A stretch of DNA of 64,000 nt from Stegostoma tigrinum (taxonomy: Eukaryota). Positions 27,975 to 37,318 of the stretch are shown piece after piece; the first letter of the stretch is position 1, and the number at the start of each line of letters is the position of its first letter. The notes under the pieces were generated by a model, which had not been told where the DNA came from, made no database searches, and was given only the letters and a program-made list of their open reading frames with translations. The position numbers were made by a program, and so were the translations under genes. The stretch is taken from NCBI RefSeq assembly GCF_030684315.1, contig NC_081369.1, positions 2,098,689 through 2,162,688 on the forward strand, given 5' to 3'.

Positions 27975-29176
27975 ATGAGCTTCAATATTATTGATAAGTC
28001 TTTTATCCAATAGCCTGTCATTTTCTTCTCAAAAATTACCTAGAAGACATTTCCATTGCATTTTACTTAATGATTTCCAACCATTGTATTTCCATCCATT
28101 ATTTCCACCATGTGTTTCTCTCTATATTGTACCTGCATTTTCTTCCTTGGTGACAACTGTCATGAACTACCAAAGAAGTCATTGTATAGTCTTAGATTGT
28201 TTCTTTACCTCCAAGCATCTATCACTTTCTTTAACTCCAATATGCCTCACTCTGCCTTCCTTGGAGCTTAAAGTTTAAATGGTAGTCAGAACTCTTTGTT
28301 CTTTTTTTTACATTACTGCATTGCATTCCCTCAAAAAGAAAACTGTGGATGTTGGAAATCAGGAACGAAAACAGAAATTGCTGGAAAAACTCAGCAGGTC
28401 TGGCTGCATCTGTGGACAGAAAACAGACTTAACATTTTAGGTCCACTGGCCCATCTTCAGAATGATTACTGCTAGGAGAAGGTTGGTATATATGCTAAAG
28501 TTGGGGTGCAGAAAAGGGAGGAGTGAATGATAAGTGAAGATGGAGAGAAAGAGAGAAAGGGGGCAAAAAAGCAATTGAGCAGACAAAGGAATGCCTAAAT
28601 TCAGTCTATCCAGCAATGTGTATAATGCTAGACATAAATCCAGGGAACCAAATAAAATTTAGAAATCTATTCTCCTTTTCTGGGTCTCTCCAATTTGCTG
28701 CCAAGACAATTTTAAACCTCTCTGAAGCAGAACACTAATTAGATTTTATATTCAATTAATTTAAATGTATTTCTACAGGACACACTTAAAATTTTATTAC
28801 AACCAGGAGAATTTTCATCTGATATTACTCTGCAAACAATAACATTCTCAATGTGCTTCTTTTGGAAATTGCTTCAATATTTATATGTTTTTAAAATCAT
28901 TTTATCGTCTCCTTCACCCCTAGCTTCCTTTATCATTCTATACAGTACAATATTGTTGCCTAAATTTAGAAAGATGAATGCATCCTGCCACATTATTCAT
29001 GTTATGTTAAGTCTACAGACAATTCTGAAATATGAGTGGATTTGAAAATTCCACAGTACTACCAAAATTAAATACAAAATACTCTTTATATATTATAAGT
29101 AACCCAATATCTGTAGTTACAGCTCAACTACTCCTGATCAAACCATATAAATGCGTCATGTTTGTTGTAATTTTAC

Positions 29177-29482
29177 CTACGTTGTCGACAATGTAACTGC
29201 AATTTCCTGGAGCAGTGATAGAAATGTGATAGACTTGACAGGTGTAAACTGTGCCATGCTCAATTGGCTGTGCCTCTTCTATGGAACTGATGACTTCATA
29301 CAGTCCGTTTGCCATTTCCCGCTGTACAGTTGTAATTCCTGTCAGAATTCTAGTGCCGTTTTTATGCCAGGTAACATTGAATTCCTTAGGGTGAAACTTA
29401 GCCGTTTGACACTGGAGTCTCAAAAAGGTAGATGAAGACTTTTGGAATGATGTAGAGACAATCTTCAGGGGTACAGGAGCAG
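29177..29482 (-). CDS. Ig C1-set domain exon
   Basis: Acceptor aaatttAG (29484-29483) and donor G|GTAAAA (29176); 306 nt, phase 1-1. LQCQTAKFHPKEFNVTWHKNG, NGLYEVISS and YTCQVYH match the C1 (Ig/MHC) [FY]xCx[VA]xH signature. Confidence 0.93.
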
Positions 29483-36452: not shown

Positions 36453-36764
36453 TATATACAAGAAGTCGGAATCCGGTTCCTTTCACAACTGTTTGATGAT
36501 GATATTTGATGACACAGTAATATATTCCAACATCTGCAACAGTCACATTCAGAACATGAAGGTAGGCGCCGCCTCTCCTCACATCGAGACTTTTTCTGCC
36601 GTTTGCTTGCAGGAAAGTCTCGTTACCGTCTTTCCACCAGTAAGCGAATACCGCCGAATGTTTGAGATGGAAAGGGAAAGGACATCGGAAGGTAACGTTA
36701 CCACCCCGGTGCGTCGTCGTTTGTGCCACATTTCTGTCATATTCGCCAGAGCTGCACACAGAAA
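36453..36764 (-). CDS. Ig V-type (germline VJ-joined) domain exon
   Basis: Acceptor ttttattgatAG (36766-36765) and donor GTAAGT (36452); 312 nt, phase 1-1. Translation has B-strand VTFRC, C-strand YWW, F-strand DVGIYYC and a J-like G strand KGTGFRLLVY. Confidence 0.93.
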
Positions 36765-37263: not shown

Positions 37264-37318
37264 CAGCACACAAAATTCCCAGGAAAGGTACGTTGCAAAG
37301 TAATCGGATCTTCAACAT
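37264..37318 (-). CDS. Leader (signal peptide) exon of a non-rearranging VJ-C1 Ig-superfamily gene
   Basis: ATG at 37318 gives MLKIRLLCNVPFLGILCA plus G, then donor GTAGGC at 37263 (phase 1). Upstream acceptor tttccatttctAG at 37349-37348 suggests a further 5'UTR exon. Splices in frame to the V exon. Confidence 0.8.

What the first reader, a model, noticed from the sequence alone, without database searches (positions are those of the whole stretch)
36453..36764. V domain is shortened like VNAR (55 aa between the canonical cysteines)
Seen: only 55 residues separate FRC from YYC, and just KDGNETFLQANG lies between the C-strand WW and the RKSL D strand. Known: conventional V-set domains have about 65-75 residues here, while shark VNAR lacks much of C'/C'' (CDR2). 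Inference: a germline single-exon V with a VNAR-like or I-set-like CDR2 deletion that still keeps the J-type GxG motif. It bears on whether the compact VNAR fold has non-rearranging relatives or arose convergently.
Basis: partly seen in the sequence, partly recalled or inferred. Interest (0 to 1): 0.7.

Follow-up and report, generated by a model that had tools for sequence, protein, structure and literature searches.

The report
Shark receptor family with VNAR-shaped tip
This exon encodes an unusually short antibody-like domain shared by a large family of non-rearranging shark, ray and chimaera surface proteins that likely act as paired on/off immune receptors; its likeness to shark nanobodies (VNAR) is likely convergent, and this copy appears to have lost its membrane anchor.

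Summary
In detail: a single-exon VJ domain with 55 residues between the cysteines and GxG kept, modelled without a C'' strand. It is not a private lesion. 46 related V exons lie on the same contig, most beside one C1 exon. Database relatives from sharks, rays and a chimaera span 53-59 residues, with ITIM-like tails or an Arg in the membrane segment: likely paired receptors. The shape is VNAR-like: a paralogue model's top fold match is a VNAR, tied with NCAM, TCR and an NKp30 entry. Descent from or with VNAR is not supported: no RSS, short DE loop, no shared residues in the shortened segment, another chromosome, and two V trees put NAR among rearranging receptors and the family beside a coelacanth VJ-C1 gene. 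V-only tests cannot reject kinship (AU p 0.27, 0.10). C''-less non-rearranging V domains are already known (PD-L2, NKp30, sponge SAML/RTK). This copy has leader, V and C1 but no membrane exon within 209 kb, although its orthologues carry an Arg-type one.

The parts
37264..37318 (-). Leader exon (ATG at 37318, 18 codons plus 1 nt); split leader completed by the first residues of the V exon
   Evidence: Best match to the leaders of orthologues P0002/P0003; GT donor; joint 37264/36764 with GT-AG ends seen in one contig of run X1 from a related organism (RNA status of the run is a guess)
36453..36764 (-). Single-exon VJ domain, compact (55 aa Cys-Cys), no C'' strand
36682..36684 (-). B-strand Cys (IMGT 23)
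   Evidence: Invariant in 56 of 56 aligned family rows
36589..36639 (-). C-strand Trp (IMGT 41) and the shortened C-to-D connection: 16 residues before the D-strand hydrophobic residue, against 18 in NAR V and 26-31 in Ig/TCR V
   Evidence: model shows one C' bridge residue and no C''
36514..36516 (-). F-strand Cys (IMGT 104)
   Evidence: Invariant in 56 of 56 rows
36472..36480 (-). J-like GxG of the G strand, preceded by Lys rather than Phe/Trp
   Evidence: Sequence; 33 of 42 family V rows keep both Gly, 0 of 42 have Phe/Trp at 118, 26 of 42 have Asn
29177..29482 (-). C1-type Ig exon of the same gene (306 nt, phase 1/1, open frame, extra Cys near its end)
   Evidence: 82% identical to the C1 of P0002; splice sites
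29124..29176 (-). Possible read-through tail (17 codons to a stop) if no downstream exon is used; would give a secreted L-VJ-C1 protein
   Evidence: Sequence only; no transcript evidence. No membrane exon found in 209 kb downstream

Best explanation
The exon is the compact, germline-joined VJ domain of a leader-VJ-C1 gene from a large cartilaginous-fish family whose members likely work as paired inhibitory and activating immune-cell receptors, and its lack of C''/CDR2 is an old family trait that likely arose independently of VNAR. Shown: exon structure, short C-D segment in all measured members, presence in a chimaera, sharks and rays, two kinds of membrane/tail module. Predicted: an 8-strand fold with a vestigial C' and no C''. 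Inferred: the V binds ligand as a single domain, since Phe/Trp118 is absent and most members carry an N-glycan site there. Members with ITIM-like tails would recruit SHP-type phosphatases. Arg-membrane members, which include the orthologues of this gene, would signal through an FcR-gamma/CD3-zeta-type adaptor, as NKp30 and NKp46 do. This copy has no membrane exon in the assembly, so it is likely either a secreted form or a decaying gene at the edge of the cluster.
For: Family: 46 V matches, all on C19, 37 of 46 without a stop in the match; C1 matches beside them. Cys spacing 53-59 in 86 of 92 family-scoring stored proteins, 6 not measurable; isoforms included. All 25 family clusters looked up, plus 6 new hits, are chondrichthyan, including Callorhinchus. 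Of 62 database proteins under 500 aa, 15 have two or more ITIM-like motifs and 12 (read by eye) an Arg at the start of the membrane segment; both types occur on C19. Fold: two models without C''. Independence from VNAR: DE loop 8-10 in 42 of 42 family rows against 12 in 8 of 8 NAR rows. In the 18-residue segment only generic Trp, Lys/Arg, Arg and Phe positions agree (24 against 8 rows). A NAR profile scores Ig/TCR V (median 26.6 bits, 16 rows) above family V (19.2, 42 rows), and the family profile ranks a CD28-like V, coelacanth P0144 and an NCR3-like V above any NAR V. Reciprocal genome searches do not cross-hit (different E cut-offs). V trees: family one clade (99/98, 100/98); NAR inside the Ig/TCR group (94/95; 84/66); family beside coelacanth P0144 and other non-rearranging V (94/86; 98/74). 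Adaptor logic from PMC5371597 (passages).
Against: The commonest family type has exactly the NAR length between Trp41 and position 76 (18 residues). A VNAR is the top structural match of the paralogue model (8ht3, Z 14.4, rmsd 2.1, 96 aligned), though tied with NCAM, basigin, TCR and an NKp30 entry. V-only AU tests do not reject family + NAR (p 0.266; p 0.102). The trees rest on 72-86 columns and the deep branches are not starred. The V+C1 test rejects family + IgNAR (p 0.0009), but IgNAR C1 has a separate origin (PMC4622739), so it does not test the V. No ligand, cell type, adaptor or expression was tested. The missing membrane exon could be an assembly gap.
Confidence: 0.68

Rival explanations
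1. The family V and VNAR/NAR-TCR V descend from one compact V exon: the family is the non-rearranging cell-surface relative that VNAR has been proposed to come from, or a germline-joined NAR V that escaped to another chromosome.
For: Same 18-residue C-D length in 24 of 42 family rows and 8 of 8 NAR rows. Both are seen only in cartilaginous fish in my look-ups. VNAR is the top, tied, fold match. AU p 0.266 and 0.102. A cell-surface-receptor origin of VNAR has been suggested (passage in PMC4622739).
Against: No shared specific residues in that segment; the C' hydrophobic positions are offset by 2-4; DE loop 8-10 against 12; no Phe/Trp/Tyr before GxG; NAR profile prefers Ig/TCR V. Both best trees separate them. 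Different contigs.
Confidence: 0.12
2. The short C-D segment is inherited from an older non-rearranging VJ ancestor of the NCR3/VJ-C1 (PRARP-like) kind and only trimmed further in sharks; full C'C'' would then be the Ig/TCR state and VNAR a separate secondary loss.
For: NCR3-like V exons of this genome have 17-23 residues in the segment and two coelacanth VJ-C1 proteins 20. Human NKp30 is described as I-type (PMC5371597, PMC12272517, passages). Coelacanth P0144 is the nearest outgroup by mean identity (27.8%) and in three trees. This is a variant of the best explanation on where the loss began.
Against: NCR3-like and coelacanth V have long DE loops (14-15) unlike the family (8-10). Support for the P0144 grouping is not starred. 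NCR3-like rows do not group with the family in either V tree.
Confidence: 0.15
3. The family is the shark branch of the SIRP family, and the short V is a derived SIRP d1 domain that reads CD47 or a similar self marker.
For: VJ-C1 layout, no Phe/Trp118, ITIM-like pairs of tyrosines, paired forms. Many database names are 'SIRP-alpha-like'. SIRP-alpha is rank 4 for the family profile in PDB. Family + lungfish SIRP not rejected (AU p 0.082).
Against: One C1, not two. Activating forms use Arg, whereas SIRP-beta uses Lys (recalled). NSFL1C-like and prodynorphin-like genes, recalled neighbours of mammalian SIRP, lie on C23, not C19. Lungfish SIRP V has 64 residues between the cysteines and ranks 19th of 48 for the family profile.
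Confidence: 0.05

Closest known systems
VNAR (IgNAR V) and NAR-TCR V
   Same: No C''/CDR2, very short C', C-D segment 18 residues (family 16-18), tied top fold match; features from PMC4622739 and PMC8470474 (passages)
   Different: VNAR rearranges (V-D-J), has a 12-residue DE loop (HV4) and its own C'-HV2 residues, and lies with IgH/TCR-alpha-delta on C55. The family is germline-joined, has an 8-10 residue DE loop, one C1 and a membrane/tail module, on C19
NKp30 / NCR3
   Same: Single-exon VJ, I-type topology, Arg in the membrane segment coupling to FcR-gamma/CD3-zeta (PMC5371597, PMC12272517, passages); short C-D segment in shark NCR3-like exons
   Different: NKp30 has no C1 and is MHC-linked; NCR3-like exons here are on C44 with a 15-residue DE loop. 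The family has dozens of genes with inhibitory partners
SIRP family (SIRP-alpha/beta/gamma; PDB 2wng, 4i2x)
   Same: VJ followed by C1, GxG without Phe118, paired inhibitory and activating members
   Different: SIRPs have V-C1-C1 and a longer V (64 in lungfish); activating member uses Lys (recalled); recalled flanking genes map to C23, not C19
PRARP / VJC1 genes (named in PMC11599192 and PMC10751288; original papers not held, features recalled) and coelacanth VJ-C1 proteins P0144, P0177
   Same: Non-rearranging VJ-C1-membrane layout with ITIM/ITSM-like tails; P0144 is the nearest outgroup in my trees
   Different: Coelacanth V has 63-70 residues between the cysteines; PRARP is recalled as one or two genes with a canonical J motif. 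No PRARP sequence was in hand, so orthology is untested
PD-L2 and sponge SAML/RTK V-C1 proteins
   Same: Non-rearranging V-type domains without C''/CDR2, compared with VNAR by the authors (PMC11926128, passages)
   Different: Not J-type exons of a paired-receptor cluster; no sign of close kinship was tested
UrIg / UrIg2
   Same: Non-rearranging VJ exon, split leader, C1-type domains (PMC12227049, abstract, sections 6-7, passages); UrIg2 is the top PDB sequence hit of the family profile
   Different: Full-length V (73 in P0080), three or more C domains, MHC- or AgR-complex-linked; groups with Ig/TCR in the V+C1 tree

Membership tests
VNAR / NAR-TCR V | Loss of C'' strand and CDR2, very short C' | tested here: met
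   Two AlphaFold models, pLDDT 87.7 and 95.0, one C' bridge residue, no C''
VNAR / NAR-TCR V | V segment ends at an RSS and rearranges to D and J | tested here: not met
   J-like G strand is in the same exon; no RSS pattern nearby
VNAR / NAR-TCR V | Long DE loop (HV4) | tested here: not met
   8 residues here, 8-10 in 42 family rows, 12 in 8 of 8 NAR rows
VNAR / NAR-TCR V | NAR-type residues in the C'-HV2 segment | tested here: not met
   Column counts, 24 family rows of equal length against 8 NAR rows: only generic V-set positions agree
VNAR / NAR-TCR V | Located in the IgH/TCR-alpha-delta complex | tested here: not met
   10 of 10 NAR V matches on C55; 46 of 46 family V matches on C19
VNAR / NAR-TCR V | One clade with NAR V in a V-domain tree | tested here: inconclusive
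   Best trees separate them, AU p 0.266 and 0.102
NKp30 / NCR3 | Single-exon VJ with I-type topology | tested here: met
   NKp30 entry 6yjp Z 13.6, rmsd 2.5, 99 aligned, tied with others
NKp30 / NCR3 | One Ig domain only, directly above the membrane | tested here: not met
   C1 exon at 29177-29482
NKp30 / NCR3 | MHC-linked | tested here: not met
   MHC-like, UrIg-like and NCR3-like exons are on C44 (identities read from recalled motifs); the family is on C19
SIRP | VJ exon followed by C1-type domain, GxG without Phe118 | tested here: met
   SIRP-alpha G strand seen
SIRP | Two C1 domains (V-C1-C1) | tested here: not met
   One C1 per V in the window and in orthologues P0002, P0003, P0179-P0184
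SIRP | Synteny with NSFL1C and PDYN (recalled mammalian neighbours) | tested here: not met
   Both on C23 at 33.9 and 35.9 Mb
SIRP | One clade with SIRP in the V+C1 tree | tested here: inconclusive
   One long-branch lungfish row; AU p 0.082
SIRP | Binds CD47 | not testable with these tools
   Needs a binding assay
PRARP / VJC1 | Non-rearranging VJ-C1-membrane protein with ITIM/ITSM-like tail (recalled) | tested here: met
   Met for inhibitory-type family members; this copy has no membrane exon
PRARP / VJC1 | Canonical J motif with Phe/Trp before GxG (recalled) | tested here: not met
   0 of 42 family V rows
PRARP / VJC1 | Orthology by sequence and synteny | not tested
   No named PRARP sequence in hand; papers not held
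Paired activating/inhibitory IgSF receptors (as a kind) | Clustered genes with alike ectodomains on either ITIM tails or charged membrane segments | tested here: met
   55-residue V clade occurs with Arg membrane segments (P0002, P0003, P0179, P0180, P0182-P0184) and with neutral segment plus tyrosine tails (P0004, P0181, C19 paralogues)
Paired activating/inhibitory IgSF receptors (as a kind) | Opposite signalling shown in cells | not testable with these tools
   Needs adaptor and phosphatase assays

The most novel reading that the evidence does not exclude
This family is the surviving non-rearranging sister of the shark nanobody domain: one compact, C''-less V exon gave rise both to VNAR/NAR-TCR, after gaining RSS, and to a 40-gene germline paired-receptor family, which would supply the cell-surface ancestor long proposed for VNAR.
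Probability: 0.12. Interest if true: 0.85.

Novelty: new variant of a known kind. Interest (0 to 1): 0.42.

Why it matters
It gives a second cartilaginous-fish lineage of compact V domains, with 53-59 residues between the cysteines against 57-64 in this genome's NAR V, kept since chimaeras and sharks split. If convergent, losing C''/CDR2 is a repeated solution for V domains that bind alone, which weakens shape-based arguments about VNAR origin. If related, it would settle where VNAR came from. Either way the family is a large, little-described candidate set of shark NK/myeloid on/off receptors that databases mislabel as SIRP-alpha, tapasin-related or B7-H6. Interest is tempered because C''-less non-rearranging V domains are already known and this scan has noted the family several times.

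Tried and rejected
Private lesion of this copy: rejected. Germline-joined IgNAR or IgL gene: rejected by one C1, no RSS, no Phe/Trp118, V+C1 tree. Plain I-set domain: Pfam prefers V-set and the exon has a J-like G strand, although weak PDB sequence hits are led by titin, DCC and contactin. Fold searches cannot rank relatives: VNAR, I-set, TLT-1/NKp44, IgL and TCR lie within about 1 Z unit; SIRP was not seen in the listed rows, which excludes nothing. ESM Atlas gave only generic V-set clusters. Membrane exon of this copy: not found by ungapped scan, profile or frameshift-tolerant search in 29 kb of window plus 180 kb beyond (best 43, control paralogue 70, self 191). Genome-wide searches with two orthologous membrane peptides also found nothing, but they missed known paralogous exons too, so they carry little weight. 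One AATAAA 378 nt after the C1 exon is no more than chance. No RNA holder listed for the window's own sequence. The C1 exon and its downstream side were not examined with reads. The last protein search covered only 789-2250 aa and says nothing on the family's range, so absence from bony vertebrates is not shown. No complex prediction was run. Literature: 10 searches found no paper describing this family. Ohta 2019, Flajnik 2012 and 2023, Criscitiello 2006, Kinlein 2021 and the PRARP paper were not held and may bear on novelty. No supplements were read.

Full report
Observation. The minus strand holds a 312-nt exon, 36764-36453, with AG/GT ends in phase 1/1. It encodes a V-set domain (Pfam E 5.8e-9) with 55 residues between the canonical cysteines and a J-like G strand, KGTGFRLLV. 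No RSS pattern lies nearby. In the same genome 16 Ig/TCR V domains have 64-72 residues between the cysteines, 8 NAR V domains 57-64 and 3 NCR3-like exons 60-69 (outgroup labels are my reading of recalled motifs, except the VNAR, which matches solved VNARs at E 2e-40). An AlphaFold model on a 56-row alignment (pLDDT 87.7) shows strands A', B, C, one C' bridge residue, D, E, F, G and no C''.

The gene. A leader exon at 37318-37264 matches the leaders of two orthologues, and one contig of a related organism joins it to the V exon at the predicted sites (one run, RNA status guessed). A C1 exon lies at 29482-29177. The closest database proteins are P0002 (Chiloscyllium punctatum, V 74%, C1 82%) and P0003 (Scyliorhinus torazame, V 53%): leader-VJ-C1-membrane segment with an early Arg-short tail. 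In the window's genome I found no membrane exon in 209 kb downstream, where a GPR139-like GPCR cluster begins (the same search finds a distant paralogue's exon at score 70 against a background of at most 43). Of 19 V-exon differences to the related organism (read by hand), 10 are silent and 9 change a residue; in 6 of the 9 the relative agrees with P0002, in 2 the window does, 1 is unresolved. The window's changes include the D-strand Phe. This hints at relaxed selection but is too small to be significant. So this copy is a secreted form, a decaying gene, or incompletely assembled.

The family. The V exon has 46 matches in the genome, all on C19 at 2.1-3.0, 9.1-10.3 and 13.7 Mb, 37 without a stop in the match; C1 matches lie beside most. 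I measured 23 of them by alignment: 53-58 residues. Among 92 stored proteins scoring at least 60 bits on the family V profile, spacing is 53 (21), 55 (22), 57 (2), 58 (39), 59 (2), unmeasured (6); isoforms are included. All 25 family clusters that I looked up, and 6 further hits, come from sharks, rays or Callorhinchus; only 28 of the 150 listed representatives were named, so the range is a lower bound. Database names are automatic: SIRP-alpha-like, tapasin-related, B7-H6-like, IgL-like. Of 62 proteins under 500 aa, 15 have two or more ITIM-like motifs and 12 an Arg at the start of the membrane segment; both modules occur on C19, and the window's 55-residue clade occurs with both. A 58-residue paralogue also models without C'' (pLDDT 95). 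The short V is thus older than the shark-chimaera split and is not a lesion.

Is it VNAR's relative? For: the C-D segment of the commonest type is 18 residues, as in 8 of 8 NAR V, and that model's top fold match is a skate VNAR (Z 14.4, rmsd 2.1, 96 aligned), tied with NCAM2 (14.2), basigin, a TCR and an NKp30 entry (13.6). For the window's own model VNAR, I-set, TLT-1, NKp44 and IgL are likewise tied at Z 11-12. Against: the DE loop is 8-10 residues against 12, so HV4 is missing. Column by column the 18-residue segments share only generic positions, and the family has its own near-invariant Arg two places before IMGT 75. A NAR profile scores Ig/TCR V above family V despite the length advantage, and the family profile ranks six non-NAR domains above the best VNAR. 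NAR V exons are all on C55 with IgH and TCR-alpha-delta. Two V trees, without and with the C-D columns, hold the family as one clade, place NAR in the Ig/TCR group, and place the family beside coelacanth VJ-C1 protein P0144 and other non-rearranging V (58 and 45 of 90 rows used, 72 and 86 columns). The forced family + NAR clade is 7.1 and 10.9 log units worse but not rejected (AU p 0.266, 0.102). The V+C1 test rejects family + IgNAR (p 0.0009), but IgNAR C1 is thought to come from IgW (PMC4622739), so that test excludes only whole-gene descent. Convergence is the best reading, not a proven one.

Likely mechanism. Position 118 is never Phe/Trp (0 of 42) and is Asn in 26 of 42, mostly as an N-glycan site on the face that pairs in Ig/TCR; GxG is kept in 33 of 42 and lost in the window's nearest paralogues. 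I infer single-domain binding through the BC and FG loops or the GFC face, which frees C'' to be lost, as in VNAR, PD-L2 and NKp30. Arg-type members would couple to FcR-gamma or CD3-zeta as NKp30 and NKp46 do (PMC5371597); tyrosine-tail members would recruit SHP phosphatases (established for ITIM receptors; untested here). Ligand and cell type are unknown.

Known kinds. Germline VJ domains with GxG are common (CD79, NITR, SIRP, CD8, NKp30, PRARP; PMC11599192, abstract and passages). C''-less non-rearranging V domains are described for PD-L2 and sponge SAML/RTK (PMC11926128, passages) and NKp30 is called I-type (PMC5371597, PMC12272517, passages). VNAR's likeness to the I-set is discussed in PMC8470474 (passages). 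The family fails defining tests for VNAR, NKp30, SIRP and UrIg (PMC12227049: abstract, sections 6, 7, part of the reference list, passages); NSFL1C-like and prodynorphin-like genes lie on C23 and MHC-like markers on C44. PRARP/VJC1 is the nearest untested candidate (named in PMC10751288 and PMC11599192; features recalled). PMC11372145 (passages) had no mention under the terms tried. Ten searches found no description of this family, but six relevant papers were not held. Earlier unchecked notes of this scan reach the same reading; they are not independent support.

Verdict. Real feature, family-wide, VNAR-shaped, most likely convergent; a new variant of the paired Ig-receptor kind. Interest 0.42; shared origin with VNAR about 0.12.

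Noticed in passing
window 29177-29482 and G000:C19:1918689-2127865: No membrane or tail exon follows this C1 exon within 209 kb, although orthologues in five other genera carry an Arg-type membrane segment; catshark database isoforms lacking that exon exist (P0154). The gene is the outermost family match at this end of the cluster.
   Followed up: partly
L046, L186, L189 (G000:C19 about 2.059, 1.950, 1.923 Mb): A cluster of GPR139-like seven-transmembrane genes (name recalled) borders the receptor cluster on the window's left.
   Followed up: no
L160, L163, L146, L165 (G000:C14 about 31.99 and 32.14 Mb): A second, unrelated pair of non-rearranging VJ-C1 genes with full-length V and an EIPPP motif like CD28H-like proteins; sister to Ig/TCR/UrIg in the V+C1 tree (95/90). 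The CD28-family paper describes those genes as V-only.
   Followed up: partly
L002, L003, L004, L012, L016 (G000:C19 2.42-2.88 Mb): The window's nearest paralogues have lost the GxG motif entirely and carry neutral membrane segments with tyrosine tails, some with two such tail exons about 250 nt apart.
   Followed up: partly
G000:C19:9299171, 9453825, 9532014, 9609964 (and 9375877): Four family V exons with identical scores, and a fifth similar one, at about 77-78 kb spacing: a recent tandem duplication or an assembly repeat.
   Followed up: no
L123 / L139 (G000:C55:2930210, 2939741): A divergent IgNAR-like cluster inside the IgM region whose V has only 57 residues between the cysteines and NAR-TCR-like residues, 57% identical to the typical VNAR at C55:8054890.
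   Followed up: partly
L106 (G000:C44:20242847): An NCR3-like VJ exon with a 17-residue C-D segment, shorter than VNAR's, showing another compact non-rearranging V in the same genome.
   Followed up: partly
P0144, P0177 (Latimeria): Coelacanth VJ-C1-membrane proteins, one with a two-tyrosine tail spaced like the family's and one with a Lys in the membrane segment: possible bony-vertebrate relatives.
   Followed up: partly
window 29198-29200 (C1 residue 94): An extra Cys at the end of the C1 exon, shared with P0002 but not with P0003, P0179 or P0180; could form an interchain disulfide.
   Followed up: no
window, outside the three exons: The rest of the window is mostly decayed LINE-type repeats; the longest open frames are retroelement pieces or repeat-derived.
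   Followed up: no
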